A stretch of 64,000 nt of DNA from Candidatus Methanomethylophilaceae archaeon (GCA_944320495.1 CALUHR010000005.1:1-64000); one strand, 5' to 3'. Positions 3,308-63,938 are shown, numbered from the stretch's first letter. Translations and numbers: made by a program. The notes: generated by a model not told the origin, from the letters alone.

Positions 3308-3883
3308 TCGGTGCATCAGATCCATGTAGGCCAGTATCAGATCCACAGCACCATCTATGCCTACGGGACCTGTGTCCACGGTCAGATGATAGTTCGACGA
3401 ATCGGCCCATCTCCTCCCAGTGTATCTCAGATAGTACTCATCCCTGGACCGGTCCTTCGAGCTGATACGGGCATAGGCATCCTTCTCAGATATCCCGTTC
3501 CTTTCCGCAGACCTCCTGATTCTGTCAGACACTGGGGCCGTGATGAATACATTGAGGACGTCATTGCGACCAGAAAGGACATAATCTGCACATCTTCCGA
3601 CGAAGACGCACTGACCCTTCGATGCCAAAGAGCGGATGACATCACTCTGCACTTCGAACAAGGGATTGGCCGTCGGAATCCCGCCGAAGAAGAGATTCGA
3701 GCCTGTCCTGGCCCTCTCCTCCATCCGCTCCGCATCTTCCACCGGGATGCCCATGCGGTCTGCAGTCCCCTCTATGACCGACCTATCGTAGCACTCGACC
3801 CCGAGCCTTTCCGCGAGAGCCTTCCCGACCTCGCGGCCGCCGCTCCCGTTCTGCCTTCCGATGGTCACTGTTAGATCCCTCAT
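3308..3883 (-). CDS. Cytidylate kinase-like family protein
   Basis: TIGRQNGSGG P-loop variant, VFVGRCADYVL, YHLTVDT. First in-frame CGA is at 3308-3310 after ILAYMDLMH; the standard-code ORF runs to 3242. Confidence 0.85.
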
Positions 3884-4389
3884 GCTCTCGCCCCCGTGGA
3901 CTTCAGAACCCTGATGTGCCTTTGCTTCATCACATAGCGTGCGGCAGGCTGGGCGACAAGCATCTCGACCCAGAACGCCACACAGAAGTTGACGGGCCAG
4001 TTCCCCGGCCATGCGAATATCGGATCAGCGGTCAGCACCCCTTCCATGAGATGTCCGACGGTCGGACCGACCACCGTCATGATCATGGACATCATCAGGA
4101 CGCAGGCGATGATGTTGAACACGATCTTGGTGTAGAAACTGTCGCCCGGCATCGTGAACCTGCGGACGAACATGTCAGCGACACGACCGACGATGAATGT
4201 CATGAGCAACATGACTATCACGACGAGCAGCGGGACCGTCGCAAGTCCCATAATGATAGTCTCAACCGTCATGCCACCCATCGTCCTGCAGAGATTGAAC
4301 TCGCACATGATGGTGGCCGTGATGATTGCAATCACCCCTCCATAAAGGATGCCATCCCTGTTGTTCCATGGTAGCCTGAGCTCTTCCAT
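3880..4389 (-). CDS. DUF2798-like membrane protein
   Basis: Four hydrophobic segments, WPGNWPVNFCVAFWVEMLVAQP motif, GAGGT RBS before ATG 4389. Confidence 0.65.
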   Translation of the reverse strand: MEELRLPWNNRDGILYGGVIAIITATIMCEFNLCRTMGGMTVETIIMGLATVPLLVVIVMLLMTFIVGRVADMFVRRFTMPGDSFYTKIVFNIIACVLMMSMIMTVVGPTVGHLMEGVLTADPIFAWPGNWPVNFCVAFWVEMLVAQPAARYVMKQRHIRVLKSTGARA

Positions 4390-4608
4390 CGACAGACCTC
4401 CTACCGGACGTCTGTTTCCGGCCTCATGGCCTCCCGATTTACGACGGCTCCGATCGGCAATCACTTGCCATAAACGCCCAATGCGGATTCGTATAAAATC
4501 GAGACCCGACAGCCAAATCCGAGACGCGTCCTATAATGTCTCCATCCCGTGCTATGATGTCCGGAACGGAAACAGATGGACGATATCTTCCAACAGAGAA
4601 TGGTGAGT

Positions 4609-4643
4609 CGAGGGGCCGGAGCCCCTCGAGGCCGAAAGGCCTC
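4609..4643. terminator. Twin hairpins at the end of the upstream minus-strand operon
   Basis: CGAGGGGC-cgga-GCCCCTCG and GAGGCC-gaaa-GGCCTC. Confidence 0.45.
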
Positions 4644-5289
4644 AGTTTATCTTGTCGAGGACAGCCGCCTCCTTGGCCTTGATGGCCGCGATGGACTCGT
4701 CAAGGTCGGGGGCGGACTCCCCGGGCTTGAGCCTGTTGAATGCCACCAGCACCGAGGCGAGCTTCGGGTTGTCCTCCATCCCGTAGTACTTCCTGATCAT
4801 CAGGTCGCACGTGGGGGCGGGACTGCAGGAGATCACATCCCTGCATCCGTTGGAGGGGTTGAGCTCGGGGAACGACACAGGGGGCATGATGAACGTCTCC
4901 CCTCCGTCGGCCTTTACGGTCGGGAACAGTATGAAGCCGTCCGAGAGCCAGACGACATCCTGCTTGTCGGCGTACTTCTGCGCCGTGAACGGGAACACCT
5001 CCTCGCCGATGACCTCCCCGTTGCCGGACAGGAGGATGACGGTGGGCTCCGGCGGAGGCCTGAACCTGGGGTCCTTGACGATGCATATGACGCATTCGCG
5101 ATCGAGGGCCTGGTTGAACCCCTCGTTGTCGACGTCAATGTTCCCCATGGCGCGGACCTTTGCCTCCTCTTCCTTGACCTGGTTGAGGATGTCCGCGTCC
5201 AGATAGAACGCGTGGACGACGCCCCTGAGACCGCGGACGATCTCGAGCTGCTCGTCTCCCGGCGCATCTATGTCGATTGTCATGTTCAT
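4642..5289 (-). CDS. Conserved hypothetical protein (Cys-containing, about 215 aa)
   Basis: Host-like codon usage; last gene of a 3-gene minus-strand unit; ECVIC and GCRDVISC..PTC motifs. Confidence 0.8.
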   Translation of the reverse strand: MNMTIDIDAPGDEQLEIVRGLRGVVHAFYLDADILNQVKEEEAKVRAMGNIDVDNEGFNQALDRECVICIVKDPRFRPPPEPTVILLSGNGEVIGEEVFPFTAQKYADKQDVVWLSDGFILFPTVKADGGETFIMPPVSFPELNPSNGCRDVISCSPAPTCDLMIRKYYGMEDNPKLASVLVAFNRLKPGESAPDLDESIAAIKAKEAAVLDKIN

Positions 5290-5298
5290 CACCCTGGA

Positions 5299-5649: not shown

Positions 5650-6610
5650 CACTCCTCAGCCTAATCAGATTGTTAATTCCTGCCATTGTCCTGATATCCA
5701 CCACGCCGATGGCCGCGATGATGCGGTTGTCGAGCTCTATCGGCGTGACGATGACCCTTATGCCCTTGTACGGACCGGACGTCGCGATCTTGCGGATTGT
5801 CGTACCGACGTTTATGACCTCCTCCAGGACCTGTCCGGTGTAGGCGTTGTCGATGACGGCGCCGTTCTCGATCCTTATTCCGAGATTGTCCCTGCTCTTG
5901 GCGCATACGGGGAGGCCTCCGACGAGGTCGTGGATGGCGAATGCCAGGGATATCAGCTCGTTCCCCGTGTTCTTGGGGGTGAGGATGTCCTTCAGGTCGC
6001 GGTTGACCTGCATGCCACCCATGATGGCCAGACCCGCGGTGACCGCTCCGAGCTCAGCAATCTCGGCGGTGGGGCCGGTGCCGATGATGATCACATCCTC
6101 GTTCTTCAGGGCGAACAGGGCGGAGATCTTGCTCGAGAGGGCCTCCTCCACGGGATAGTCCGAACCCGGGAAGATGAGCCTCCCGTCCGTGTACACCAGG
6201 GTGGTCGCGCCTGTCGCACCGGAGCGTATCGCGGCGTCCCTCTCCTCGCAGCCGAACTTCACGCTCCCTGCCTTCTTGGGAACGCGGACGGCGCAGTCGT
6301 GGTCGCCGATGGTCAGGTCGCTTATGGAGATCGGGGCGATGTCCATGTGGTAGTTCCTCTTGATGTCGGCACCACGGTCGGTGAGCAGGATCCCGCTCTT
6401 GCCGATGGTTATCATGCCCTGGTCCTGGAGCTGCGAGAGGATCGTCCTCGTGCTGCCCTCGCCTATCCCGAGGTGCTGGGACAGCCTCTTCCTGCCGACC
6501 GGCTGGCTCTCGTCGAGGCACTGGAGGGCCTTCCAGATATGGTAATCGTTGAATTTCGGGACCGGTCCGCCCAACCGTCCGGACTTCTGCATCATCGTTG
6601 GATGCACCAT
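5636..6610 (-). CDS. Winged-HTH + DUF4443 + DUF2111 fusion, putative transcriptional regulator
   Basis: N-terminal GGPVPKF...GRKRLSQHLGIGEGSTRTIL HTH; ERDAAIRSGATGATTL central domain; C-terminal GGLPV...GPYKGIRVIVTPI...AIGVVD domain. Confidence 0.75.
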   Translation of the reverse strand: MVHPTMMQKSGRLGGPVPKFNDYHIWKALQCLDESQPVGRKRLSQHLGIGEGSTRTILSQLQDQGMITIGKSGILLTDRGADIKRNYHMDIAPISISDLTIGDHDCAVRVPKKAGSVKFGCEERDAAIRSGATGATTLVYTDGRLIFPGSDYPVEEALSSKISALFALKNEDVIIIGTGPTAEIAELGAVTAGLAIMGGMQVNRDLKDILTPKNTGNELISLAFAIHDLVGGLPVCAKSRDNLGIRIENGAVIDNAYTGQVLEEVINVGTTIRKIATSGPYKGIRVIVTPIELDNRIIAAIGVVDIRTMAGINNLIRLRSDDND

Positions 6611-6739
6611 GTATCCAATATATGAGCATTATGTTAACTAATGTATACTTGTTAGTGTATTGAACCGTTTTATCCCAATCGGGGCAGTCCGTCTAAACAA
6701 GGTTAACGCGCACTTACCGTTCGGGTTGTTCCAAGATAG

Positions 6740-6747
6740 TTTATATT
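6740..6747 (+). promoter_or_regulatory. TATA box for the atwA-mcrC-mmp operon
   Basis: TTTATATT about 22 nt upstream of ATG 6769, in an AT-rich divergent intergenic region. Confidence 0.5.
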
Positions 6748-6768
6748 GGCCCATGGGTTGGGCGGTTC

Positions 6769-10510: not shown

Positions 10511-10929
10511 GCGCAGAGAGGGAGACCAGGCTCCTCATGATTTCGCCGAGCTCCATGCTCACACCGGACCAGCTGGTCCGCATGGTCCACTCGTTCGGCC
10601 TCACCGTCACGGTGAAGGAGACCTGCTACGGATGCCTCATCGAGGCCTCCGCGGAGACCGCGCGCGAGGTGCTCTCCCGCGTCAGGGAGAGGTATCCCAA
10701 CGAGGTCTTCTCCAAGGTCAGGGCCTACAGGTGCAGCGACCCCGTGAGATGCAGGGCACAGCACGGCACCAGACCCGGTTACGCACAGCTGGAGGAGGAG
10801 TGGTCGCTCCTCCCCAGGATACAGCACGGCCTCGAGGAGGTCGAGAAGGGGGCGAAGTACGTTCCGCCCGCCGAGAAGAAACGCATTCCCGTAAACGACT
10901 TCAAGAAGATCTGCGAGGCTCAGCGATGA
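10507..10929 (+). CDS. mmp6: Methanogenesis marker protein 6
   Basis: VKETCYGCLIE, RCRAQHGTRPGYAQLEEE motifs; ends CAG CGA TGA (CGA 10924-10926). Confidence 0.9.
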   Translation: MSAERETRLLMISPSSMLTPDQLVRMVHSFGLTVTVKETCYGCLIEASAETAREVLSRVRERYPNEVFSKVRAYRCSDPVRCRAQHGTRPGYAQLEEEWSLLPRIQHGLEEVEKGAKYVPPAEKKRIPVNDFKKICEAQR

Positions 10930-12580: not shown

Positions 12581-12589
12581 GGGATACCG

Positions 12590-17463: not shown

Positions 17464-18147
17464 TCGGTAACCCCTGGACCTCAGCACATCGGGGATGTCG
17501 GCGACCGAGTCCACCACGGTCATACCCGGGAAGTCGGCCAGCCAGTCCTCGCGGGTGCAGGTGCCGGTGAGAACCCCGACGTAGTCCGCCCCCGCATCGC
17601 GCGCGGAATGCCAGTCGGTCAGGTTGTCGCCGACGTACAGGATCTCCTCCGGACGGACTCCGAGGAGACCGGCGAAATCCATCATCGCCTTGGGCGACGG
17701 CTTCGCATCATCGTAGAAGGTGTGGTCCCTGCCCATCACGGCGTCGAAATCCCCGAAGAGGGGTCCCAGCGCCCTGCGCGCGTACTCGAGGCTCCCGCGG
17801 GTCAGGATGCCCGTCTTCAGGCCCATCGCGCGGATCTCCTCCAGGGCCTCGACGTTTCCCGGGAACGGCTCCGCCTCATCGACGAACTCGCACTCGCACT
17901 CGGTGGCCAGATCGTCGATCTCGGAATTGATGGCATCCCACTCGGAACCGCGACCGTTGGCCTCCAGCCAGAGGCGTATCGGCGTCCTGAGCCTCTTCGC
18001 CCTCCCACCGAAATCTATCTCGTCGAAGGGTATGCCGTGGCGCTCCAGCACCGTGCGGTCTACGTTGTTCAGCCTGTCGTAGTCCACGTGAGTCCTGAGG
18101 AAGGTGCCGTCCATGTCGAATCCGACGGCCCTGTAGCGCCCTGCCAT
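17464..18147 (-). CDS. HAD-superfamily hydrolase (phosphoglycolate phosphatase-like)
   Basis: FDMDGT, ILTRG, KPSP, YVGDN motifs. First CGA is at 17464-17466 after VLRSRGY; standard-code end is 17413. Confidence 0.9.
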
Positions 18148-20018: not shown

Positions 20019-20316
20019 GAACGTCCCCGGGAGGCAGTACGAGATCCTCGGGGTCGTGAAGGGGAACATGGTCCAGACGAAGAACATCGCCCGCGACATC
20101 GGCCAGGGACTGAAGTCCATGGTCGGCGGGGAGCTGACCACGTACACCGAGATGATGAACGAGTCCCGCGCCATCGCCACCAAGAGGATGGTGGAGGAGG
20201 CCGAGAGGATGGGAGCCGACGCCATCGTGATGATGCGCTACTCGACGTCCGCGGTCGCGGCCGGAGCGGCGGAGATCATCGCCTACGGCACAGCAGTCAG
20301 GTTCGTCCGAGCCTGA
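19999..20316 (+). CDS. YbjQ/UPF0145 family protein
   Basis: LLTTTENVPG...GVVKGN...GGELTTYTEMM...GADAIV...YGTAV; ends GTC CGA GCC TGA (CGA 20308-20310). Confidence 0.92.
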   Translation: MLLTTTENVPGRQYEILGVVKGNMVQTKNIARDIGQGLKSMVGGELTTYTEMMNESRAIATKRMVEEAERMGADAIVMMRYSTSAVAAGAAEIIAYGTAVRFVRA

Positions 20317-23211: not shown

Positions 23212-23655
23212 TCGCAGCCTGCTGACGTGGACGTGCACGCCCTCGCTGCTGTCTACCGTCACCCTGGCGCCCTCCTCTATCGGCTCGTCCGATGTGGCGG
23301 ACCAGATGTCGTTGTCTATGCGCACCTTGCCCCTCATCGTCCCCGGGACGGTCGCGGTGACCACGACGCCCGTCCTGCCGACCAGGGAGTCCATCACCGT
23401 CGTGGACGGGGGAGCCGGCTCGGCCAGCCTCTGGTACCCCTTGACGGTGATGAGCGTGACCGGGACTGCGACGACCACGACGATCGCCAGCGCCCACCAG
23501 GAGAGCAGGATGTCGGGGAACGCGGCCCCGACCACCCCGAGGATGACGAGGACCAGTCCGGGGATTACCATGAACGCGCCTGGGCTGAATGCCTCGATTA
23601 TGAGGAACACTGCGCCGAGCGCTATCAGAATGATCGCTACGGTGAACGGGTCCAT
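23212..23655 (-). CDS. NfeD-family protein
   Basis: TM segments plus an OB-fold (GKVRIDNDIWSA). CGA at 23212-23214 after HVSRL is followed by the GGAGG RBS of the SPFH gene; standard-code end 23182 overlaps SPFH. Confidence 0.9.
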
Positions 23656-24019: not shown

Positions 24020-24718
24020 TCGCACGTGCAGCCCCAGCCTCCTGAGCGCCGATTCCATCTCCGACCTCCTCGGGAACTGCGAGAGGACCTCGTCGTACTC
24101 CTTGCCGCGCCTGCCCACGCCCGGGTTGAACCCCATGCCCACATGGGCCAGCTGAGAGAACAGGCAGTAGTCCAGCAACCTCTCCGGGACATCCTCGGAG
24201 TCCAGGCTCCCCGACATGGACACGACCTTCATCAGGACGCTCGCGTGGCCCACGTCCCTGCTCCTCGAGGGGACCGTCCATCCCACGAACACGTCGGGAT
24301 CCCTCTCCACCAGACCGTCGTCGACGAGCCTCCCGTAGCTGTCGGCCAGGTCCCAGACCTTGCCACGGGTGGTCCTGCTGAGCCCCACGTACCTGTTCAC
24401 GTATAGCGGCTGCATACGCCTGGAGAACGATGGGTCGCTCAACCATGAGACGACCTCCTCCGGATAGTCCACCCTCTCCCCGAACATCCTCGCGTATATC
24501 GTGTCGGCTAGCGGGCGCATCACGCGCTCCGGCGCATCCGACAGATAGTCGGAGACCTCGAAGTCCGCCCATCTGTAGTTCCTGGTCCATCTGACCTTGA
24601 ACTCCCTGAACGCGGCGAACTTCGCGCTCACCTCGTCGAATCCGCGCATCCTCCCGGCCGACCCGAAGCATCTCGTCAGCTCCATATCTTCCAATTCGTA
24701 GTCTCCTGCGGAATCCAC
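24020..24718 (-). CDS. SprT/M48-like protein with a degenerate zinc motif
   Basis: LDSEDVPERLLDYCLFSQLAH aligns with the xLDxxxVPxxxLDYVxxHExxH pattern; CGA at 24020-24022 after RRLGLHV; start uncertain. Confidence 0.7.
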
Positions 24719-25670: not shown

Positions 25671-27218
25671 ATGTCCTTCGTCTCTCACCCGCGCATCGCC
25701 CCCGACAGGGTCGAGGAGAGGGGATACCAGACCCGCATGGTGGAGCAGTGCGTCCGCGCGAACACGCTCCTGATCCTCCCGACGGGGCTGGGCAAGACCG
25801 TCATCGCCGTCCGCGTGGCGGCGGAGTTCCTGGACAGGGGCAGGGTCCTCATGATGGCGCCCACCAAGCCGCTGGTGGAGCAGCACATGGAGGCGTTCTC
25901 GTCCCTCCTGAAGGATGCCAGGGTCTCCATGCTGAGCGGCATGACCCGCGACACGAAGCGCGCGGAGATAGTGGAGTCGTCGGACGTCGTCGTATCGACG
26001 CCGCAGACCGTCCAGAACGACCTGGAGGCCGGCAGGTACGACCTGTCCGGGTTCTCGCTTGTGATCTACGACGAGGCGCACCGCGGACGCGGTGATTACG
26101 CCTACGTGGGCGTCGCCGGGTTCGTCAGGAGAGGCACGAGATGCGTCGGCATGACCGCCTCGCCGGGGAGCAGCATCGACCGCATCGAGGAGGTGTGCGT
26201 GAACCTCAACCTCAGACGGATCGACATGCGCACGGAGTACGATCCCGACGTCTCACCCTTCGTCCACGACACGTACATCAACAGGATCGAGGTGGACCTG
26301 CCACAGGACATCAGGGACGTCTCCGCCCTCCTCAAGGTTATGCTGGATCACTACTACTCGGAGCTCTGCAGCCTGGGTGCGGCGAGCCCCCGCGTCCAGC
26401 CGTCCAAGGGCTATCTCCTGAACGTGGGCAGGGACCTGCAGGCGCAGGCCGAGAGACCTGGTTCCAGCGGGGTCGTCTTCCGCTCCCTCAGCGTCAACAA
26501 GACCTGCATCCAGCTCCTGGAGGCCGTGAACAAGGTGGAGTCCGAGGGCATGACGGTCCTGAGGAGCTACCTGGACCGCCTCGAGGCGGAGGCGGCGCAG
26601 GAGCGCGGCGGGAAGGCGGCACAGGCGATCGTCCGCAGGCAGGAGTACGCCGCCGTGAGGACCATACTGTCGAAGACCAACGTGGAGCATCCCAAGGTCT
26701 CCCGCGTGATGTCCCTGGTGAGCAGGGCCATCTCCGCCGACCCCCGGTCCAAGGTCCTCGTGTTCGCGCAGTTCAGGGACACGTGCGAGATGCTGGTGTC
26801 CAAGATATCGGGAATCCCCGGCGCGAGGGTCAGCATGCTCATAGGGCAGTCCAAGGGCGGTCTGAAGCAGAGGGAGCAGGTCTCCCTCCTCGACGGATTC
26901 AGGCGCGGGGACTCGAACGTCCTGGTGTCCACGTCGGTGGGCGAGGAGGGGCTGGACATATCCAACACGGACGCGGTCGTATTCTACGAGCCGGTCCCGT
27001 CCGAGATCCGCACCATACAGCGCCGCGGGAGGACGGGGAGGAAGAGCGACGGCGAGGTCTACATGCTCATAGCCAGGGGCACCGTGGACGAGGCCTTCGA
27101 GAGGTCCAGCCTGCGCAAGGAGCAGGAGATGCGCGAGAACCTGGAGATGCTGAGCGAGAGGCTGAGCCGCGGGGAGTCCCTCGGCGACGGCGGACAGACC
27201 AGGCTCGACGGGTACCGA
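25671..27218 (+). CDS. Hef/FANCM-type SF2 helicase (no ERCC4 nuclease domain)
   Basis: LPTGLGKT, DEAHR, TASPG, STSVGEEGLDI, QRRGRTGR motifs; ends QTRLDGY then CGA 27216-27218; standard-code end 27326 overlaps lig. Confidence 0.9.
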
Positions 27219-29584: not shown

Positions 29585-30888
29585 TCACCCTGTACCGCGA
29601 GTGCCTCACCGCAGAGGCCGGCATCGGCATGCACAGATACCTGTGCGACACCGACGGGACCGGCGGACACCTCAAGACGCTTCCAGAGGACTTCATCGTC
29701 AGGGAGATCTCCGATCCCCCTCGCGAGAAGGAGGGCGGCGAGTTCACCATCGCCACCGTCACCAGCCGCAACTGGGAGACCAACCGCCTCGTGCGCATGC
29801 TGTCCCGCTCCATCGGGATGTCCCGCACCAGGATCGGGTTCGCGGGGACCAAGGACAAGCGCGCCGTCACGACGCAGCTCATGTCCTTCAGATGCCCGCC
29901 CGAGGACCTGGCCAAGATCAGCCTGAAGGATGTGGAGATCTCCGGGATCTACACCGGAAGCCGCGCCATACAGCTCGGCGACCTGATCGGCAACTCGTTC
30001 GAGATCACAGTCAGGGACTGCGCCATGCCCATGGCCGAGATCGAGGAGACCGTCAACGCGGACATCGACATCATCCGGAGGACCAAGGGCTTCCCCAACT
30101 ACTTCGGCGTGCAGAGGTTCGGGTCCGTCAGGCCCGTGACGCATCTGGTCGGCGAGAGGCTCGTCCGCGGCGACATAGAGGGCGCCGTCAGGACGTACAT
30201 CTGCCATACCACCCCCGAGGAGGATCCGGATCTCCAGGAGCTGCGCGGATCCCTCGAGGGATGCACCGATTGGGCCTCCGCCGCTTCCTCCATGCCAGAG
30301 AGCATGTCCTTCGAGCGGGTCCTCGCCCAGGCCCTCGCCGGCGGGGAGGACTGGAAGGGAGCGATCTCGGCCCTGCCGACGAACCTCCAGATGATGTTCG
30401 TCCATGCCTATCAGTCATACCTGTTCAACGAGATGCTGAGCGAGAGGATGGCCCGCGGGCTCCCATTGGACCGCCCGGTCGAGGGCGATGTCGTCATCCC
30501 GCTCTCCCAGGACGGCACCCCCAACCACGATGAGACGATCCTTACCACGTCCAGGAACATCGATCTGGTGGCGAGACAGGTCCGCGCGGGGAGGGCGTTC
30601 GTCACCATCGCCCTGTACGGATCGGAGAACATGCTCGCCGAGGGCGAACCCGGCGAGATCGAGAGGTCCATGGCAGAGCGCGAGAGGCTGAGCCCCGAGG
30701 ACTTCGTCATACCCGGACTGCCCAAGTGCTCCTCGAAGGGCGGCAGGAGGGAGATTCTCTGTCCCGTCGACGACCTCAAGGCATCCTTCGCCGAGGACAC
30801 CTATTCGATGAGCTTCTCCCTGCCCAAGGGGAACTACGCCACCTGCCTGATGCGCGAGTTCATGAAGTCCGAGATGCGGGACTACCGA
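29581..30888 (+). CDS. truD: tRNA pseudouridine(13) synthase
   Basis: PEDFIVRE, GFAGTKDKRAVT, GNSF, FPNYFGVQRFG, FSLPKGNYATCLMREFMK; CGA at 30886-30888 after EMRDY. Confidence 0.95.
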
Positions 30889-44375: not shown

Positions 44376-44821
44376 ACGCCAGGGACGAGTTCAGGAACCT
44401 CATGCTCTCCATGAAGATGCTCGAGGGAGGGTTCACCGAGGGCGACGGCATCTCCGAGATGTCGTACAAGAGCTCGATCTACCTCGACCTCATCGCCCTC
44501 GGGGGCGAGATGAACGTCTCGTCCCTCGCCGGGATCATGAGGGTGTCCCCGTCGGCGGTGACCAGGAGGCTGAACATCCTCGAGGATCTGGGACTTGTGG
44601 TCCGCAGGAGGAGCGAGGGCGATTCCAGGTTCAAGACCGTGTCCCTCTCGGAGCGCGGGGAGGAGGTCCTGGGGGAGTGGAACGACGCCATAGACTCGCC
44701 CTGGGGCGACCTGCGCGACGAGTTCTCCGACGAGGAGATCGACCTCTTCTGCAGGATGCTCAGAAGAGCGTCCGAGAGATACGCCGGATACTGGGACTCC
44801 CGCTCCGGAGAGGAAGACCGA
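44372..44821 (+). CDS. MarR-family regulator
   Basis: VSPSAVTRRLNILEDLGLVVR...DSR...VSLSERG; CGA 44819-44821 overlaps the next ATG (CGATG). Confidence 0.88.
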
Positions 44822-46250: not shown

Positions 46251-46664
46251 ATGAGGATGGAGAACGACCCCGGACTGAGGGGTATGTACCAGGCCCTGAG
46301 GAGATACGATGTCGGCGTGCTGAGGACGGTCTCGGCCAGGAAGGCCCTGAAGATCGCCGCCCTGGACGCGTCCCTGGCAGGATCCGAGCCGGACAGGAAC
46401 AAGAGGCTGCTGCGCACGTACCTGGACGAGGACCGCATCGCCTACGAGACGGTGGCGTACGTCCTGTCCCTGCCCGAGGAGGGGTTCGAGGAGGCGATAG
46501 CCGAGATCGGACCCGCCATGAGGCCGGAGTACACAGACATACCGCGCTCGGTAATGGACTCCTACAGGCGCGGGCTCACGGACCTCGAGCTCAGGATGGA
46601 GCAGAAGGCCGCCGAGTATGCCGACGACGTGATAGGCATCGTGAGCGGCCACTGCGAGTACCGA
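46251..46664 (+). CDS. Hypothetical helical protein (137 aa)
   Basis: Host-like codon usage up to GHCEY, then CGA 46662-46664, 4 nt before the convergent cbiO stop. Confidence 0.65.
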
Positions 46665-53565: not shown

Positions 53566-53584
53566 ATCAGAAGGATGGGAAGGC

Positions 53585-53608: not shown

Positions 53609-53616
53609 TGGTTTGC

Positions 53617-55344: not shown

Positions 55345-55383
55345 ATCGGTCGGCTACGTATCGTAATGACGGATATATACCGG

Positions 55384-57044: not shown

Positions 57045-57339
57045 CTCTTGATCGAACCGTGGAGGTTGTTCCTAGTATATTGGATGATAGGTCCATCTCA
57101 TGCGGGCCCTCTGTGTTCGGGCACGGAAGACGGACATTCCGCATCGCAGAACGATGGAATCCGAGACTGTCGTCGGTCTCTTGCCGTCGAAGGCCACACT
57201 GCAAAGCAGCGCCTCCCCTTATCATGGCATCCATCGGTTGGAACGGATGGGACCTATTCGGGACAAACGACCGAACGGACCTATAACGTTGCGGAAACAA
57301 CGGAACCAATCATAATCTCCTCCGACCCTCTCCATCCCC

Positions 57340-57963
57340 ATGCTGGGAAAGGACATCGTCATCGACCGCGAGAAGTGCGACGGGTGCGGACTGTGCGTCC
57401 AGGCGTGCCACGAGGGCGCCCTGGCCATCGTCGACGGCAAGGCCGCTCTCGTCAGGAAGGACTTCTGCGACGGGCTGGGGGACTGCCTGCCGGCCTGCCC
57501 CCAGGGTGCGATATCCTTCGCCGACCGCCGGTCATCGAGCACCGAGTGCGGATCCGGGTTCGACTCCGGATACCAGTGGCCCATCCAGCTCGCCCTCGTG
57601 CCCCCGAGATGGGACTTCTACCGCGGCACGATCGTCATCGCGGCGGACTGCACCGCGTTCGTCATGGACCGCTTCAGGTCGGTGATGGCCAGGGGCGACC
57701 CCGTGATCATCGGATGCCCCAAGCTGGACGACCGCGCCAGGTTCGACAAGGTCCTGGCCATCCTGAGGGACAACCCCGTCGACGAGGTCCGCGTCATACG
57801 CATGGAGGTCCCCTGCTGCCGCGCGCTCACAAACATCGTCAGGGCCGCGGCGGAGCAGTGCGGCAGGGATGTTCGCGTGACCGAGACCATAGTCTCCCGC
57901 GGCGGGTCAGTGCTGTCCGCGGAGCCTCCGCAGGCGCCCGCCGGGTTCGTCGGGCTGAGGCGA
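57340..57963 (+). CDS. 4Fe-4S dicluster domain protein
   Basis: CDGCGLC..ACHEGA, CDGLGDCLPACP, QWPIQL, GCPKLD, MEVPCC; CGA 57961-57963. Confidence 0.88.
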
Positions 57964-57966
57964 TCG

Positions 57967-58587
57967 TCGCCTCTTTACCGCCAGGTACAGGACCCCGGGC
58001 TCCCCCGGGATCGCCCTCGCGTCCATGCCGACGGAATCGAGGAGCGAGAGGATCTCATCGTCGGGGATCATCCTCGCCCCGTAGTCCCTGTTGATCTTCT
58101 CGACGATCTCGTCCCTTCCGGCGCCGAACCTCTCCTCGGCGCCGATGGCGAGGATGCCCCCGGGTGCGAGGACCCTGGCGATCTCGACCAGACCGGCCCT
58201 CAGGTCGGGCCAGAAGAAGTAGGTCTCGATGGCCGTGACCATCGCGAAGGACCCGTCGCCGAAGGGGAGGTCGTCCACCGAAGCCAGTTGGAGGTCGAAC
58301 CTTCTGGAACCCATGAGATTCTCGTTCATCTCGCGGGTGACCGCGAGCGAGTCCTCGGAGATGTCCACGCCCGCAAATCCAGCGTCGGGATACCTTGCGG
58401 AGAGCCTTCTGAGGAATCCGCCCCCGCCGCATCCGACGTCGAGGATGCGGCCGTCGACCGTCGCGGGGAGCCTCTCGAGGCAGAACTCCCAGAGGGGGAC
58501 GTGGTGCTCGTTCATCCTGGCGAGGACCTTCCTGCCGTCCTCGCCGATGGGCTTCCTGCACTGGGATCTGAGATGCTCTTCGGCCAT
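57967..58587 (-). CDS. Class I SAM-dependent methyltransferase
   Basis: ILDVGCGGG, GVDIS, LPFGDGSF, ETYFFWPD; tandem CGA CGA (57967-69, 57964-66) after LAVKR. Confidence 0.9.
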
Positions 58588-58629
58588 GGAAGAAGGGATG
58601 GCCTGCTGGGATAAGGATTCGATGATTGG

Positions 58630-59568
58630 TCAGACTCGCTGATCGGCGTCCGGTCCGACGTACCTGGAGCGGAACGACGCCTTCCCGACCTCGTACAGCA
58701 TGAGGTCGTCGGCGACGTACGATTCGGGGAAGATCCCCCTGGCCTCGGCCTCGAGGACGCTCCTGTCGTCGTAGCGGTGGCTCACATGCGTCATGATGAG
58801 ATGCCCGACCCCGGCCTCCCTCGCGAGGCGCGCGGCCTGTGCCGCAGTGGTGTGGTTGTGCTTTCCGGCGTTCTCCGCCTCGGCGTCCATGTAGGTGGCC
58901 TCGTGGATCAGCACGTCCACCCCATGGGCGGCCTCGACGGTGCTGTCCGCCGGTTTCGTATCCCCGGTGTACGCGACGCTGATGCCCGGAACGGGAGGTC
59001 CTATGACCATGTCCGGCGTGATGTCCCTCACCGGCTCACCGCGCTTCAGCCTCGCCATGTCCGGGCCGTCCCTGGCGCCCAGTGCGAGCGCCCTCTCATG
59101 ATCGAGCTTCCCGGGCCTGTCCGGTCCGCGGAGGACGTAGCCTATCGAGAACATGCCATGGTCCGTCCTGAAGCAGGACGCCCCGAAGCCGCAGGCCTGG
59201 AACGTCTCGCCTCCGGACAGCTCCCTCACGTCTATCGGATAGCTCAGCTCGCCCCCGGTGGCCTCCATGGCCGTGTCGATGAGCGCGCGTATGCCGGGCG
59301 GGCCGCATATCAGAAGGGGATCCCTGCGGTCCGACAGGCTCATGGTCTGGAGCAGACCGGGCAGACCGAACACGTGGTCCCCGTGCAGGTGCGTGACGAG
59401 GATCGCGCCTATCTTCATGAACGAATAGGGGGACTCCATCAGCCTGCGCTGGGTCCCCTCGCCGCAGTCGAGGAGGACTATCCCGCGGCCCTCCTTCACT
59501 GCGATGCAGGAAGTCGAACGGTCCTTGGAGGGGACGGCCGCGGACGTCCCCAGGAACAGGATCTCCAT
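58630..59568 (-). CDS. rnz: Ribonuclease Z
   Basis: LGTSAAVP, DCGEGTQ, THLHGDH, GDT, HEATY, HTTA, THVSHRY; ends CAG CGA GTC TGA. Confidence 0.95.
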   Translation of the reverse strand: MEILFLGTSAAVPSKDRSTSCIAVKEGRGIVLLDCGEGTQRRLMESPYSFMKIGAILVTHLHGDHVFGLPGLLQTMSLSDRRDPLLICGPPGIRALIDTAMEATGGELSYPIDVRELSGGETFQACGFGASCFRTDHGMFSIGYVLRGPDRPGKLDHERALALGARDGPDMARLKRGEPVRDITPDMVIGPPVPGISVAYTGDTKPADSTVEAAHGVDVLIHEATYMDAEAENAGKHNHTTAAQAARLAREAGVGHLIMTHVSHRYDDRSVLEAEARGIFPESYVADDLMLYEVGKASFRSRYVGPDADQRV

Positions 59569-59780
59569 CGGTAGACCTGGTCGATCTCCCTGTCCTGCTT
59601 GGTCTGCTTCTTGTACTCCTTGTAGTGCTCCTTGCAGAGGTGGACGCTGCGGAGCCCCTGGGACTTGTAGGAGAGACCGCATCTGGAGGCCTGCTTGATG
59701 TTGATCGAGCGCTCCGCGGGCTTGTCGCAGCCAGCGACGTCGCAGACTTCCTCGGCGGTTCCATGCTTTGCCAGTGCCAT
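59568..59780 (-). CDS. Small Zn-finger-like protein (CxxxxC...HxCxxH)
   Basis: CDVAGC...HLCKEHYKEYKK; CGA 59568-59570 overlaps the rnz ATG (CGATG). Confidence 0.75.
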
Positions 59781-60056
59781 GCCACCCGGATAGACCTAAT
59801 CAATAGATAAGGGTGCCAGACGGAACGACGATCTGGCGATGCTTCCGGCTCGAGCCACCATACCGCGTCCCTTCCCCGAGCAGGACCCGACGGGGCCCCG
59901 GAGAAGTGGGGATGGGATGGCTTGGGACTCCGCCATCGCCGCGGTCGCGAAGGCCCCGGCCTGCACGGTCTCGCGCAGGCGAACGGTCTGAAACGGGGGC
60001 ATCCAGGACCCCCTTTCCCCACCGGTGCCTACGAATCCATTTAATCGGACACGCCG

Positions 60057-60725
60057 ATGGCCCCCACCATGACTCTCGTATCCCCGTCCATCCTCTCCGC
60101 AGACTTCTCCAGACTCGGCGACGAGGTCGCCCGTGTGGACCGCTCTGGCGCGGACTGGGTCCATCTGGACGTCATGGACGGGATGTTCGTCCCGAACATC
60201 ACATTCGGACCGCCAGTCATCAAGGCTGTCAGGCCCTGCTCCGACAGGCCCTTCGACGCCCATCTCATGATACAGGACCCGGCGAGGTACATCGACGCCT
60301 TCGCCGACGCGGGATGCGATTCGATCACCGTCCACGTGGAGGCCGACGGGGACGTCAGGGACGCCGTCAGGCGCATCTCCGACCATGGGCTGGGCGTGGG
60401 GATCTCCATCAACCCCGAGACCCCCTTCGAGAGGATCGAGCCGTTCCTCCCCGATGCGGACATCGTCCTCGTCATGACCGTCCATCCCGGGTTCGGGGGC
60501 CAGTCGTTCATCGGGGACTGCGTGCCCAAGATCTCCATGGCAAGGCAGTGGGCCGAGGACCACAACCCCGGGCTGCACGTCTCCGTGGACGGCGGCATCA
60601 ATGACGTCACCGCGCGCACCTGCGTCGAGGCGGGCGCGGACGTGCTCGTGGCCGGATCCTTCCTCTTCAAGAAGGAGGACATGGCGCCCACCATCGAGGC
60701 GTGGCACGGCATGAGGGTGAGGCGA
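60057..60725 (+). CDS. rpe: Ribulose-phosphate 3-epimerase
   Basis: SPSILSADF, HLDVMDG.FVPNITFG, DAHLM, VMTVHPGFGGQ, VDGGIN, LVAGS; 222 aa to CGA 60723-60725. Confidence 0.95.
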
Positions 60726-60726
60726 G

Positions 60727-61755
60727 ATGGGAGTAAACCTCTCGCCCATCGTGGAGTCGGCGCCGATAGAGCTGTCCGACCTCCGCGGGAAGACCGTCGC
60801 CATCGACGCGTACAACACCATCTTCCAGTTCCTCTCGATCATCAGGCAGCCCGACGGGAAGCCGCTCATGGACGACGACGGAATGGTCACGTCCCATCTC
60901 TCGGGACTGCTGTATAGGACCGCGAATCTGATCGAGAACGGCATCGAGCCGGCGTTCGTCTTCGACGGGAAGCCCAGCGAGCTCAAGGCCGGGACCATCG
61001 AGGAGCGCATCGCCAGGCGCGAGAAGGCCAGGGAGGAGTACGAGCAGGCGCTGAGGGAGGGCGACATGCAGAAGGCGTTCTCCAAGGCGCAGCAGACCTC
61101 CAGGATCACGCCGGACATCCTGTCCACCTCGAAGGAGCTGCTGACGCTGATGGGCATACCCGTGATCCAGGCGCCGAGCGACGGGGAGGCCCAGGGGGCG
61201 TACATGTGCCTCAAGGGCGACGTCCATGCCGCCGCCTCCCAGGACTTCGATTCGATTCTCTTCGGCGCGCCCACGCTGGTGCGCAACATCACCATCTCCG
61301 GCAGGCGCAAGGTCCCCGGCAAGAACCTCTACAAGACCGTCCAGCCCGAGATCATAGACACCGGGAGGATGCTCTCGGACCTCGGGGTCACGAGGGAGCA
61401 GCTGGTGGACGTCTGCATCATGATCGGCACCGACTTCAACCCCGGGGTGTCCGGCATCGGGCCGAAGAAGGGATTGAAGCTGATCCAGCAGTACGGCGAC
61501 CTGGAGCACGTGATCGCCGCCAAGGGCTACGACATCCCCGGCTACGAGGAGGTCCGCGAGATCTTCCTGGACGGGCCCAAATCGGACGATTACTCGGTGA
61601 AGCCCGGCCAGGTGGACGCCGACGGAGTGCTGGCCATGATGTCCTCCCACGGGTTCTCGGAGGATCGCGTCAGGACGGTGCTAGGCAAAATGACTGCCGC
61701 CCGCAAGGCGGAGTCTGACAGAAGGAAGCAGAGGTCTCTGGACAGCTGGTTCCGA
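60727..61755 (+). CDS. fen: Flap endonuclease 1
   Basis: MGVNL, AIDAYN, APSDGEAQ, SQDFDS, GTDFN.GVSGIGPK; C-terminal PIP box QRSLDSWF then CGA, giving 342 aa. Confidence 0.97.
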
Positions 61756-62427
61756 TCGCGCCCTCACGGCCAGCCTCACCAGGTCATGCCCCTGGGAGAA
61801 CAGCCTGCAGTAGACGTCCCTGCACCTCTTGTAAGACCGGAAGGTCCTCTCGGCGGCCTCTACGTCGCCGTACACCTTCCAGCATCCGATGCAGCGGCAG
61901 CACCTGCCCTCGTTCTCGATGTACCCGCGGACGTCCTCCATGGGATAGTCCAGGAACACGCCGACCTCAGGGGGCATCCTGGGACAGAGCACGAACCTGC
62001 GGCAGAGCTGGTCCACCATGTGCTCCGCGTTCCCGCTGTCGTAGCCGTAGTCCTCGAGGAAGGACATGACCTCGCGGTCTGCGATCCTCGCGCAGAGCAT
62101 CGACGGGCGGTACACGTACACGAGCGAGCCCTCGCCGTCGAAGCTTATGATGCGCACGCGGACGCCGCGGTCGCGGAGCATGCCCTCGATCTCCCTGGTC
62201 TGATGGAGAATACCATGGGGGTCGGACTCCACCCTGAACATGCTTCCGCACTTCAGGCCCGCCAAGGTCGGCGAACAGTGGCGGACGACGCGCTCGCGCA
62301 GGTCGGGAACGGAGGTTCCCACCCGTCCGGGGCATGTCTCTAATATTGGACGGGCTGGCTCATGGATCTCTGCTATGTCGGAAAGTCCCTTCCCGCAGAC
62401 CGAGTCGCCGTGTATGTCCGACCTCAT
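61756..62427 (-). CDS. DUF3793-family protein
   Basis: HCSPTLAGLK, LVYVYRP, PPEVGVFLDYPMEDV, GCWKVYGD; CGA at 61756-61758. Confidence 0.85.
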
Positions 62428-62432
62428 GGTGA

Positions 62433-62497
62433 TTAGGACATCCTAAACTGCGTATATAAGATTTAGGCTCAACTAATAAAATCAAATCGAGCCTAAA
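62433..62497. promoter_or_regulatory. DtxR/IdeR-like operator array over a divergent promoter
   Basis: TTAGGAcaTCCTAA (62433-46), TTAGGctcaACTAA (62463-76) and GAGCCTAAA (62489-97) flank TATATAA (62453-59). Confidence 0.6.
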
Positions 62498-62511
62498 ACA
62501 TCGCAAAGGAA

Positions 62512-63237
62512 ATGTCCGGGACGATGCATGCGGGTGCCATGGGATTCGCCGACGCGCACCTCCACCCGCTCGAGATCGCGGACAGCGGAGCGTATCCGGA
62601 CCTCGGGGAGGCGGAGGTCCTCTTCGGGTGCGTGTCATCGTCATCGCAGTGGGACGCCATGTCCTCCTTCGAGGACAGCAGGATCAGGCGCTTCTACGGC
62701 GTGCATCCGTGGAACGCGTCGGAATGGTCCGCGGACGCGTGCGCGAGGCTGGAATCCATCCTCGAGGATGATGAGAGAGCGGGTATCGGCGAGATAGGTC
62801 TCGACTCGAAGCACGGGACGACGGAAGAGCAGGCGGAGGCCTTCGACGCCCAGCTCGCGCTGGCCGAGAGGTTCGGAAGGCTGGTGAACATCCACTGCGT
62901 CGGATGCGAGAGGGAGGTCCTGGAGCATCTGGAGCGCCACAGACGCATACCCGGAATCGTGATCCATTCCTTCTCGAACGAGAGCTACACGGTCCCGTTC
63001 GTCAGGCTGGGATGCCATCTGTCGGTGAACCCGCGCATATTGGCGCGGTCCGAGGTACGCATCAGGAAGCTGATGGATTCCATCCCAGGGGACAGGCTCC
63101 TCCTGGAGTCGGATGCTCCTTTCACCCCGCGCTTCACCGGAATGATGGATTTCGCCGAGAGACTAGCCGGAGCAATCGGAAGCGACGCGGGGACCCTTCT
63201 GGGCGCGGCGCTGGACAACGCGAGGTCGATTTCATGA
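62512..63237 (+). CDS. tatD: TatD-family nuclease
   Basis: DAHLH, GVHPW, IGEIGLD, NIHC, IHSF, LLESDAP. Confidence 0.92.
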   Translation: MSGTMHAGAMGFADAHLHPLEIADSGAYPDLGEAEVLFGCVSSSSQWDAMSSFEDSRIRRFYGVHPWNASEWSADACARLESILEDDERAGIGEIGLDSKHGTTEEQAEAFDAQLALAERFGRLVNIHCVGCEREVLEHLERHRRIPGIVIHSFSNESYTVPFVRLGCHLSVNPRILARSEVRIRKLMDSIPGDRLLLESDAPFTPRFTGMMDFAERLAGAIGSDAGTLLGAALDNARSIS

Positions 63238-63938
63238 ACGGGATGAACGACAGGACCGGGCTGATACTCGGAGAGGATGGACTCGAGAGGCTGAGGGACG
63301 CGCATGTCGTCCTCGCGGGTGCCGGAGCCGTCGGAGGATACGCGCTGGAGGGGCTCGTCAGGGCCGGCGTCGGGCACATCCGCGTGGTGGACGCCGACGT
63401 GTTCTCTGAGAGCAACCTCAACCGCCAGATCCTCGCCACCGTTGACACCATCGGGAGGCCCAAGTCGGAGGTGGCCTGCGAGCGCGCCAGGTCGATCAAT
63501 CCCGATGTGGACATCGAGGGGCTCCCGCTACTGGTCTCCGAGGAGACGATCCCCGAGATCCTGGATGGCTGCGAGGTCCTCGTGGACGCCATCGACACCG
63601 TCCGCCACAAGACGGCGCTCATACGCGCCGCGGTGGAGATGGGGATCCACGTCTACTCGTCGATGGGCGCGGCGCTGCACACCGACCCGCTGGCGGTGCG
63701 CATCGACACGCTGAAGAGGACGTCCGTGTGCCCGGTGGCCTCCGCGGTCAGGAAGGCACTGAGGGACATGGACACGTCCGACGTGACGTGCGTGTACTCG
63801 GTGGAGCCGCCGGTGACAGTCCCCACGGAGAGGGACGGGCACGGGAAGAGCGTGCTCGGCTCCCTGCCCACAATCCCGGCGGTGTTCGGGATGACGCTGG
63901 CGAACTGCGCCGTGATGAGGATCGCCATCGACAGTCGA
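63234..63938 (+). CDS. ThiF/TcdA-like (tRNA threonylcarbamoyladenosine dehydratase family) protein
   Basis: GAGAVGG, DADVFSESNLNRQ, DAIDT, SSMGAA, TSVCPVA; CGA 63936-63938 after RIAIDS; standard-code end 63965. Confidence 0.9.

What the first reader, a model, noticed from the sequence alone, without database searches (positions are those of the whole stretch)
3308..63938. CGA appears to act as a stop codon: candidate new genetic-code variant in a methanogen
Seen in sequence: in 19 genes the first in-frame CGA falls at the expected C-terminus. These are cmk-like 3308, mmp6 10924, HAD 17464, ybjQ 20308, nfeD 23212, SprT-like 24020, hef 27216, truD 30886, TPR 30889, marR 44819, hypothetical 46662, 4Fe-4S 57961, methyltransferase 57967, rnz 58636, Zn-finger 59568, rpe 60723, fen 61753, DUF3793 61756 and thiF 63936. 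In a manual pass over the Arg codons of the roughly 64 genes I found no internal in-frame CGA, while AGG, CGC, AGA, CGT and CGG are all used internally. Read as Arg, these CGAs give non-homologous tails and overlaps of up to several hundred nt; read as stop, the overlaps vanish. Flanking bases vary (only 6 of 19 are in a GATC context) and out-of-frame TGA is abundant, which argues against a motif-specific base-calling error. Established: CGA is a rare Arg codon in many genomes, so the lack of internal CGA alone is weak and the positional coincidence is the signal. Inference: possible mechanisms are (a) true reassignment with loss of tRNA-Arg(UCG) and an altered aRF1, (b) C-to-U mRNA editing of CGA to UGA as in plant organelles, or (c) an unassigned codon where ribosomes stall and are rescued. 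I know of no organism described as using CGA as stop, but I could not search.
Basis: partly seen in the sequence, partly recalled or inferred. Interest (0 to 1): 0.98.

Follow-up and report, generated by a model that had tools for sequence, protein, structure and literature searches.

The report
CGA used as leaky stop codon
In this chicken-gut methanogen and its genus, the arginine codon CGA is almost absent inside genes and instead ends about a quarter of them where relatives have TGA, which would be the first sense-to-stop change of the genetic code outside organelles.

Summary
All 19 CGA codons are present. My own gene calls find 41 TGA, 19 CGA and 1 TAA gene ends in the window, and no internal CGA in 18,796 codons.

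Genome-wide, 344 of 395 in-frame CGAs that follow strongly coding sequence are followed by non-coding sequence, the same profile as TGA. Orthologues in 16 relatives end in TGA or TAA (64) or CGA (21) at the matching place. The genome is a Methanomethylophilaceae MAG of the genus that holds Ca. Methanoprimaticola.

CGA looks like a weak, leaky stop:
- It is rare in codon-biased genes (7.5% against 37%).
- TGA is protected against T>C change.
- Backup stops are enriched after it.

A tRNA-Arg(UCG) is kept, but with an abnormal anticodon arm. The release-factor gene aRF1 carries one in-frame CGA at codon 78 in 43 of 43 species of the genus, which suggests self-regulation. I could not test RNA editing or ribosome stalling; both look unlikely.

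I found no publication describing this. One 2026 preprint only speculates about CGA as a stop in two Njordarchaeales MAGs. The scan has reported the same thing before on other pieces of this genome and on another genome; I re-derived it independently.

The parts
3308..3310 (-). CGA ending a 191-codon Cytidylate_kin2 gene (3311-3883)
   Evidence: Pfam match ends at aa 171. The next standard stop is 22 codons on.
10924..10926 (+). CGA ending a 139-codon DUF2102 gene (methanogenesis marker 6 type)
   Evidence: CGATG: the next gene's ATG overlaps by 1 nt. Pfam profile 2-103/103 ends at aa 110.
17464..17466 (-). CGA ending a 227-codon HAD hydrolase gene
   Evidence: Pfam match ends at aa 217. The tail is 17 codons.
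20308..20310 (+). CGA ending a 103-codon YbjQ_1 gene
   Evidence: Pfam profile 1-102/103 ends at aa 101.
23212..23214 (-). CGA ending a 147-codon NfeD gene
   Evidence: Pfam match ends at aa 145. The next gene starts 15 nt downstream.
24020..24022 (-). CGA ending a 232-codon gene with no Pfam family
   Evidence: Supported by coding score only. The tail is 23 codons.
27216..27218 (+). CGA ending a 515-codon DEAD/Helicase_C (Hef-like) gene
   Evidence: Last Pfam match ends at aa 458. The tail is 36 codons.
30886..30888 (+). CGA ending the 435-codon truD gene
   Evidence: TruD profile 2-412/412 ends at aa 427. The 114-codon tail would overlap the convergent TPR gene.
30889..30891 (-). CGA ending a TPR-repeat gene of about 1,150 codons
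   Evidence: Shares the palindrome CGATCG with the truD stop. The tail of 158 codons has no family.
44819..44821 (+). CGA ending a 149-codon MarR gene
   Evidence: CGATG overlap with the next gene's start.
46662..46664 (+). CGA ending a 137-codon gene with no Pfam family
   Evidence: Supported by coding score. The tail is 95 codons.
57961..57963 (+). CGA ending a 207-codon 4Fe-4S protein gene
   Evidence: The 217-codon tail would cover the whole convergent methyltransferase gene.
57967..57969 (-). CGA ending a 206-codon methyltransferase gene
   Evidence: Pfam matches end at aa 149. The tail is 20 codons.
58636..58638 (-). CGA ending a 310-codon metallo-beta-lactamase / tRNase Z-like gene
   Evidence: The tail is 2 codons.
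59568..59570 (-). CGA ending a 70-codon gene
   Evidence: CGATG overlap with the start of the tRNase Z-like gene.
60723..60725 (+). CGA ending the 222-codon rpe gene
   Evidence: Ribul_P_3_epim profile 2-198/198 ends at aa 204. The tail is 64 codons.
61753..61755 (+). CGA ending the 342-codon fen (FEN1) gene
   Evidence: Ten congeners have TGA and one (G010) has CGA directly after the same ..SLD.WF end. The 538-aa read-through form is what public gene calls hold.
61756..61758 (-). CGA ending the 223-codon DUF3793 gene
   Evidence: Pfam profile 2-166/167 ends 4 residues before the CGA. Shares CGATCG with the fen stop.
63936..63938 (+). CGA ending a 234-codon ThiF-family gene
   Evidence: Pfam match ends at aa 227. 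The tail is 9 codons.

Best explanation
In this genome, and in much of its genus (Methanomethylophilaceae, the genus holding Ca. Methanoprimaticola), CGA has lost its role as an ordinary arginine codon. It works as a fourth, weaker and leaky end-of-translation signal beside TGA and the rare TAA.

Shown: selection treats CGA as the end of the coding region in about 25% of genes.

Inferred: termination at CGA is carried out by the single aRF1. A retained tRNA-Arg(UCG) with an altered anticodon arm still inserts arginine at low frequency. The one CGA kept inside the aRF1 gene (codon 78) makes aRF1 synthesis depend on the balance between the two, a feedback like the in-frame UGA of bacterial prfB.

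Proposed history: CGA first disappeared from genes in the genus and in neighbouring genera. T>C pressure in the GC-rich species then converted TGA stops to CGA wherever selection was weak.

My odds: CGA is effectively a stop, about 0.85. aRF1 is the agent, about 0.5. The aRF1 CGA is autoregulatory, about 0.5.
For: (1) Genome-wide, 395 in-frame CGAs follow 40 strongly coding codons. Of these, 344 are followed by non-coding sequence and 12 by coding sequence. TGA gives 961/50 of 1,100 and TAA 47/6 of 60, whereas CGC, CGT and AGG are followed by coding sequence in about 80% of cases.

(2) My gene calls give 1,145 TGA, 391 CGA (24.6%) and 53 TAA ends.

(3) Orthologue ends: G000 genes ending in CGA correspond to TGA (57), TAA (7) or CGA (21) in 16 relatives. 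Inside aligned genes, CGA is as rare as TGA/TAA in eight congeners (0-4 per 6,000-23,000 codons). It is an ordinary Arg codon in G070, G102, G013 and G019 (13-23 per 7,000-19,000 codons, mostly aligned to R).

(4) CGA ends occur in independent assemblies of other species (G026, G021 = Ca. Methanoprimaticola sp. MG2, G004, G039, G041 = UBA480, G010). The read-through FEN1 of 538 aa occurs in at least 7 other public assemblies.

(5) CGA is not depleted by mutation: 44,295 out-of-frame CGAs lie inside genes.

(6) Signs of a weak, leaky stop:
- The CGA share falls from 37% to 7.5% across quintiles of codon bias (p = 1e-22).
- Between G000 and G026, 0 of 68 TGA stops became CGA although 27% of four-fold T sites became C (p = 3e-9), and 2 of 10 CGA stops are TGA against 1.4% C>T.
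- An in-frame TGA/TAA lies within 10 codons after 28.5% of CGA ends against 18% of TGA ends (p = 2e-5).

(7) aRF1 codon 78 is CGA in 43 of 43 distinct genes of the genus, while none of 18 other conserved Arg columns ever uses CGA. The flanks GCU/UCU-CGA-CUN are fixed, although the neighbouring Ala codon varies freely.

(8) A second conserved in-frame CGA joins gmhA to gmhB in 23 of 30 species and is replaced by TAG (3) or AGA/AAG (3) in others.

(9) A G000-only CGA in a flavodoxin-like gene aligns to AGG (Arg) in the two nearest orthologues.

(10) tRNA-Arg(UCG) is present in all 17 genomes of the genus examined but is abnormal. Fifteen have a 31-39 mismatch (A.A in G000, G026, G041, G009 and G010; G000 and G026 also have U32 and C38). 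G008 and G023 have C33. All 14 tRNAs from other genera pair 31-39 normally, as do the four other tRNA-Arg genes of G000.

(11) There is only one aRF1 plus Pelota. Genus-specific aRF1 N-domain changes are A17D, D/E51N (next to the residue matching human E55) and S142C. G28S, in the position of the G of the human GTS motif, occurs only in G000 and G026.
Against: There is no protein, Ribo-seq or RNA evidence; everything is inferred from DNA.

The NIKS and YxCxxxF motifs of aRF1 are unchanged. From textbook structures, NIKS reads the first-position U, so it is unclear how aRF1 could accept C.

The tRNA-Arg(UCG) gene is retained, so CGA can in principle still be read as Arg everywhere.

G008 and G023 keep the aRF1 CGA but showed no CGA gene ends in 80 kb each. 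Other genera have a single CGA at other aRF1 codons (11, 25, 123). The aRF1 CGA therefore may predate, or be independent of, use of CGA as a stop.

One other Arg codon of aRF1 (186, CGT) is also invariant, so codon conservation alone is not proof of function.

The lowest codon-bias quintiles may contain false genes that inflate the CGA share.
Confidence: 0.8

Rival explanations
1. CGA is an unassigned or 'hungry' codon. The crippled or scarce tRNA-Arg(UCG) makes ribosomes stall at CGA, and the chain is freed by a codon-independent route (Pelota/ABCE1-type rescue, or slow non-cognate action of aRF1) rather than by true recognition of CGA as a stop.
For: - CGA is absent from genes also in genomes that show no CGA ends (G008, G023, G158, G075), as expected for an unassigned stage.
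- The tRNA has an abnormal anticodon arm.
- The aRF1 first-base motif NIKS is unchanged.
- CGA ends are avoided in codon-biased genes and followed by extra backup stops.
- A Pelota gene is present.
Against: An unassigned codon should be avoided everywhere, not placed at the exact orthologous stop position of a quarter of all genes, including 87 CGATG stop/start overlaps typical of coupled translation. Rescue pathways normally release peptidyl-tRNA or trigger decay, a costly way to finish about 390 proteins (my own knowledge). The conserved CGA inside aRF1 is easier to explain if aRF1 itself reads CGA.
Confidence: 0.13
2. CGA is converted to UGA in the mRNA by C-to-U editing, so the ribosome sees a standard stop.
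For: It would explain stop behaviour with an unchanged aRF1. It could not be tested: the metatranscriptome contigs laid on the window did not bridge the sites I could inspect.
Against: An editing enzyme cannot know the reading frame. Genes hold 35,053 CGAs in frame +2 and 9,242 in frame +1 (NCG-A), where editing would change the amino acid. About 390 sites would therefore need individual recognition in a 1.77-Mb genome. The flanks of terminal CGAs are variable. The conserved CGAs in aRF1 and at the gmhA-gmhB junction, and the retained tRNA-Arg(UCG), have no role in this model.
Confidence: 0.03
3. CGA is still an ordinary, very rare arginine codon; the C-terminal tails are real and the pattern is a by-product of codon bias.
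For: A tRNA-Arg(UCG) gene exists. The few internal CGAs align to Arg.
Against: - Coding potential collapses after CGA exactly as after TGA.
- Tails have no Pfam match and overlap neighbouring genes by up to about 650 nt.
- Orthologues stop at that position.
- A rare codon would be scattered in genes, not concentrated at ends: 344 terminal against at most about 5 credible internal cases.
Confidence: 0.03
4. Sequencing or assembly artefact that turns TGA into CGA.
For: None found. TGA>CGA is a single transition.
Against: - The effect is specific to the reading frame.
- It recurs at partly the same and partly different gene ends in independent assemblies of several species.
- Contigs of the best-holding chicken-gut DNA run cover all bins of window 44001-64000 with only 4 differing letters, none C>T. 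That run may be the source sample.
Confidence: 0.01

Closest known systems
Sense-to-stop codes of organelles (NCBI tables 2, 22, 23: AGA/AGG in vertebrate mitochondria, UCA in Scenedesmus mitochondria, UUA in Thraustochytrium mitochondria; from my own knowledge)
   Same: A sense codon, in table 2 also an arginine codon, disappears from inside genes and stands at gene ends.
   Different: Here it happens in a free-living cellular genome of 1.77 Mb with about 1,600 genes. The cognate tRNA gene is kept. The codon is still read as Arg at a few conserved sites. It coexists with TGA as the preferred stop.
Unassigned codons (CGG in Mycoplasma capricolum, AGA/AUA in Micrococcus luteus; codon-capture theory of Osawa and Jukes; from my own knowledge)
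   Same: Disappearance of a codon under compositional pressure. Congeners G008 and G023 and genus g16 look like this stage, with no CGA in genes and none at ends.
   Different: In G000 and at least six congeners the codon has reappeared, at the stop position of 3-25% of genes.
Autoregulation of bacterial release factor 2 by an in-frame UGA in prfB (from my own knowledge)
   Same: The release-factor gene itself carries a conserved in-frame copy of a codon that otherwise ends genes (43 of 43 species).
   Different: No frameshift is involved; full-length aRF1 needs read-through as Arg. It is archaeal, and the feedback is inferred, not shown.
CGA possibly a stop in two Njordarchaeales MAGs (KACI preprint, 10.64898/2026.04.02.715157)
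   Same: An archaeon with no CGA in recognisable domains; the author raises the possibility of a stop.
   Different: That case comes with CGG=Trp and no tRNA(UCG), is in another phylum, and the author states that the method cannot infer stops. Methanomassiliicoccales are not mentioned.
Ambiguous or complete UAG=pyrrolysine decoding in Pyl-using archaea (10.1101/2024.09.30.615893; PMC12626013)
   Same: One triplet serves both as stop and as sense codon, through competition between a tRNA and aRF1. This genome has PylS and TAG often lies inside coding sequence.
   Different: The direction is opposite (sense to stop). The Pyl-code preprint does not mention CGA.
tRNA-Trp(CCA) with a 4-bp anticodon stem that reads UGA in trypanosomatids and ciliates (as summarised in PMC13092985)
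   Same: A lost 31-39 pair at the base of the anticodon stem, in a tRNA that competes with the release factor for a codon.
   Different: There the change helps a near-cognate tRNA to read a stop. Here the tRNA is cognate, and the direction of the effect is unknown.

Membership tests
Sense-to-stop codon reassignment | The codon is absent from conserved internal positions of genes | tested here: met
   0 in 18,796 window codons. 12 of 395 genome-wide are followed by coding sequence, about 5 of them credible. 0-4 per 6,000-23,000 aligned codons in eight congeners.
Sense-to-stop codon reassignment | The codon stands where orthologues have standard stops | tested here: met
   57 TGA, 7 TAA and 21 CGA at the ends matching G000 CGA ends. 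FEN1: 10 TGA and 2 CGA at the identical position.
Sense-to-stop codon reassignment | Loss of the cognate tRNA | tested here: not met
   tRNA-Arg(UCG) is present in all 17 genomes of the genus examined, with an abnormal anticodon arm.
Sense-to-stop codon reassignment | A release factor recognises the codon and releases the peptide | not testable with these tools
   Only correlative aRF1 substitutions were found (A17D, D/E51N, S142C; G28S in G000 and G026). NIKS and YxCxxxF are unchanged.
Unassigned codon | The codon is avoided at all in-frame positions, including gene ends | tested here: not met
   About 390 gene ends (24.6%) are CGA. The feature is met in G008, G023 and G158 within the 80 kb sampled from each.
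Release-factor autoregulation by an in-frame stop (prfB type) | A conserved in-frame copy of the stop codon inside the release-factor gene | tested here: met
   Codon 78 is CGA in 43 of 43 distinct aRF1 genes, with fixed flanks U-CGA-CU.
Release-factor autoregulation by an in-frame stop (prfB type) | Factor level controls passage of that codon | not testable with these tools
   Needs a reporter or Ribo-seq.
Programmed read-through with a cis RNA element (SECIS/PYLIS type) | A conserved RNA structure next to the recoded codon | tested here: inconclusive
   RNAalifold on 21 aRF1 genes (120 nt around the CGA) found no pair with compensatory change and a covariation term of -0.31 kcal/mol. The sequence is too conserved to decide.
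C-to-U mRNA editing creating stops | RNA differs from DNA at the site | tested here: inconclusive
   The RNA runs are kept as contigs only and were too fragmentary, and the difference table was truncated.

The most novel reading that the evidence does not exclude
CGA is a genuine fourth stop codon read by the archaeal release factor aRF1, in competition with a deliberately weakened tRNA-Arg(UCG). The conserved in-frame CGA in aRF1 is a self-measuring feedback loop. This would be the first sense-to-stop reassignment in a free-living organism and the first release-factor autoregulation known in archaea, caught at several evolutionary stages within one genus.
Probability: 0.45. Interest if true: 0.95.

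Novelty: new variant of a known kind. Interest (0 to 1): 0.9.

Why it matters
Sense-to-stop changes of the code are known only from mitochondria. A cellular example, with intermediate stages in sister species, would make the codon-capture and ambiguous-intermediate theories directly testable. The stages seen are: codon absent, then codon at 3-12% of ends, then codon at 25% of ends.

It would also show that aRF1, or some other route, can end translation on a codon beginning with C.

Practically, standard gene callers read through CGA. The public protein for this FEN1 is the 538-aa read-through form, not the 342-aa protein. About a quarter of the proteins predicted for this genome therefore carry false tails and false overlaps, as will a smaller share in many gut and rumen Methanomethylophilaceae genomes.

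One congener is listed as Ca. Methanoprimaticola sp. MG2 with a 420x assembly. Whether it is in culture I could not check, but if so it would offer a route to experiments.

Tried and rejected
- **RNA evidence.** One search found 4-6 chicken-gut RNA runs holding 5-21% of the words. Laying two of them (X16, X15) gave only short contigs. None that I could inspect bridged a CGA site, and 563 differences were not listed, so this gives no verdict on editing. Independent DNA run X5 is a diverged strain, and its letters at the sites were not shown.
- **Self-training of the codon model on 20-80 kb of G026 and G010.** It converged on a wrong frame, because TGA did not behave as a stop. I used orthologue ends instead for those genomes.
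- **tblastn of all long ORFs of relatives against G000 to count internal CGA.** Invalid, because out-of-frame shadow ORFs of conserved DNA also align. Ignored.
- **First RNA model R1.** It used a wrong consensus fold and was replaced by R2 with a cloverleaf.
- **Search for an RNA structure beside the aRF1 CGA.** No covariation.
- **blastn for tRNA-Arg(UCG).** It missed several genomes. The covariance model found a UCG tRNA in each of the 10 genomes probed.
- **Other CGAs followed by coding sequence.** Most are a CGA end followed by an in-frame next gene, for example C1:9791 and C8:98213.
- **Literature.** There are no hits for CGA as stop in Methanomassiliicoccales.

Full report
**What the window is.** The window is identical to contig C5:1-64000 of a 1.77-Mb, 14-contig genome with 61.6% G+C. 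Its aRF1 gene finds named relatives that are all Methanomassiliicoccales, family Methanomethylophilaceae. The genus includes Ca. Methanoprimaticola sp. MG2 and MAG UBA480. Runs that hold the window are almost all chicken or bird gut metagenomes from several studies. The genome has a PylS gene.

**The observation.** All 19 places carry CGA on the coding strand. I trained a codon model on the genome itself and called genes with TAA, TGA and CGA as stops.
- The window then holds 41 TGA, 18 CGA and 1 TAA ends, with 88% coverage. The 19th (3308) ends a Cytidylate_kin2 ORF.
- No window gene ends in TAG.
- Pfam matches stop a few residues before each CGA, and no tail matches any family.
- Read through, the frames overlap neighbours by up to about 650 nt. 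Read as stop, they give tidy junctions, including three CGATG stop/start overlaps and two CGATCG back-to-back ends.
- Window genes hold no in-frame CGA in 18,796 codons but 1,597 CGAs out of frame. At outgroup usage, 19-58 would be expected.

**Genome-wide test without assuming the answer.** For every in-frame codon preceded by 40 strongly coding, stop-free codons, I scored the 40 codons after it.

| Codon | Cases | Followed by non-coding | Followed by coding |
|---|---|---|---|
| CGA | 395 | 344 | 12 |
| TGA | 1,100 | 961 | 50 |
| TAA | 60 | 47 | 6 |

CGC, CGT and AGG are followed by coding sequence in about 80% of cases. Most of the CGAs with coding sequence downstream are a gene end followed by an in-frame next gene. 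Gene calls give 1,145 TGA, 391 CGA (24.6%) and 53 TAA ends.

**Relatives.**
- FEN1 ends ..SLD.WF in 12 congeners. The next codon is TGA in ten and CGA in G000 and G010.
- I fetched 20-80 kb from 16 genomes. Ends matching G000 CGA ends are TGA 57, TAA 7 and CGA 21.
- Inside aligned genes, CGA is as rare as TGA/TAA in all eight congeners, and also in G158 (another genus, 1 in 17,378) and G075 (0 in 6,167).
- CGA is a normal Arg codon in G070, G102 and two other families.
- CGA ends were seen in G026, G021, G004, G039, G041 and G010. None was seen in G008 and G023 (53-57% G+C) or in G158.
- The genus therefore shows stages: codon gone, then codon back at a few ends, then codon at a quarter of ends.

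**Not an artefact.** The signal is frame-specific and recurs in independent assemblies of several species. The 538-aa read-through FEN1 is present in at least seven other public assemblies, and the 342-aa form in none. Contigs of the best DNA run cover window 44001-64000 with four differing letters, none C>T. That run may be the source sample.

**CGA is a second-rate stop.**
- Its share falls from 37% in the least to 7.5% in the most codon-biased fifth of genes, and is 6 of the top 100. The lowest fifths may contain false genes.
- Between G000 and its near twin G026, 27% of four-fold T sites are C, but 0 of 68 TGA stops are CGA. Two of 10 CGA stops are TGA, against 1.4% C>T. TGA is thus held by selection against a strong T>C drive.
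- Backup TGA/TAA codons within 10 codons follow 28.5% of CGA ends against 18% of TGA ends.
- Terminal CGAs prefer U at +4 (54% against 29%) and are three times as often part of a CGAUG overlap. I have no explanation for this.

**CGA is still sometimes arginine.**
- aRF1 (G000:C2:85936-87165, 410 aa, ends in TGA) has one in-frame CGA at codon 78, a conserved Arg that aligns to Arg81 of human eRF1.
- In 43 distinct aRF1 genes of the genus, codon 78 is always CGA, including G008 and G023. The 18 other Arg columns never use CGA. The flanks GCU/UCU-CGA-CUN are fixed while the preceding Ala codon varies. No RNA structure with covariation lies nearby.
- Other genera of the family tend to have a single CGA at aRF1 codon 11, 25 or 123.
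- A second conserved CGA joins gmhA to gmhB, which has no conserved start codon of its own. The junction codon is CGA in 23 of 30 species, TAG in 3, AGA/AAG in 3, and one differs; several more species have separate genes.
- A CGA private to G000 in a flavodoxin-like gene aligns to AGG (Arg) in the nearest orthologues.

**The machinery.**
- G000 has tRNA-Arg with UCU, CCU, CCG, GCG and UCG anticodons.
- The UCG tRNA has an A31.A39 mismatch and a UUUCGGC loop. The same gene is in G026.
- G041, G009 and G010 have A.A, nine congeners have C.A, G021 has U.C, and G008 and G023 have a different UCG tRNA with C33.
- All 14 UCG tRNAs from other genera pair 31-39.
- A 4-bp anticodon stem is known to change how tRNA-Trp competes at UGA (PMC13092985). 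What it does here is unknown.
- There is one aRF1 and one Pelota.
- NIKS and YxCxxxF are standard. Genus-specific N-domain changes are A17D, D/E51N (beside the residue matching human E55) and S142C. G000 and G026 alone have G28S at the position of human G31 of the GTS motif. These are correlations only.

**Mechanism.** I think the most likely reading is termination at CGA by aRF1 in competition with a weakened tRNA-Arg(UCG), with the aRF1 CGA acting as a feedback sensor. Stalling at a near-unassigned codon with rescue is the main rival. Editing is unlikely because about 44,000 out-of-frame CGAs lie in genes.

**Literature.** I found no description of CGA as a stop in Methanomassiliicoccales. 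The KACI preprint notes missing CGA in two Njordarchaeales MAGs and says it might be a stop. Earlier notes of this scan report the same phenomenon on other pieces of this genome and on another genome. My aRF1, tRNA and genome-wide results were obtained before reading them, and they agree.

Noticed in passing
whole genome G000; window: no gene ends in TAG: TAG behaves partly as a sense codon. Of 223 in-frame TAGs after strongly coding sequence, 73 are followed by coding and 44 by non-coding sequence. PylS is present at G000:C9:67854-68522. With TAG largely freed and TAA rare (3%), TGA would otherwise be almost the only stop.
   Followed up: partly
G000:C13:193672-194700 (minus strand), CGA at 194143: gmhA (SIS) and gmhB (HAD phosphatase) are joined in frame by a single CGA, and gmhB has no conserved start codon. 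The junction codon is CGA in 23 of 30 congeners, TAG in 3 and AGA/AAG in 3. This is a candidate programmed read-through fusion.
   Followed up: yes
window 30886-30891, 61753-61758, 57961-57969: Convergent genes share or nearly share the palindrome CGATCG, so one hexamer supplies the stop of both strands. CGA followed by TCG occurs at 54 of 391 CGA ends genome-wide.
   Followed up: partly
genome-wide, terminal CGAs: There is a strong +4 U preference (54% against 29% after TGA) and a three-fold excess of CGAUG stop/start overlaps (87 of 391 against 85 of 1,145). The cause is unknown: termination context, coupling or mutational history.
   Followed up: partly
aRF1, codon 186 (G000:C2, minus strand): Arg186 near the GGQ loop is CGT in 43 of 43 genes of the genus, although CGT is a minor codon. 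Unexplained codon conservation.
   Followed up: no
window 35157-37916 (+): A 919-codon ORF has a very low codon-model score (56 against about 250-500 for its size). It is possibly foreign DNA or a miscalled frame.
   Followed up: no
window 34427-34500 (+): tRNA-Gly(UCC), the only tRNA in the window.
   Followed up: no
aRF1 loci L016, L018, L019, L028, L032, L035, L036, L063: Several contigs carrying this archaeal aRF1 are filed in public records under bacterial names (Ruminococcus, Bifidobacteriaceae, Lachnospiraceae, Prevotella, Dialister, Bacteroidaceae bins). They are probably binning errors.
   Followed up: no
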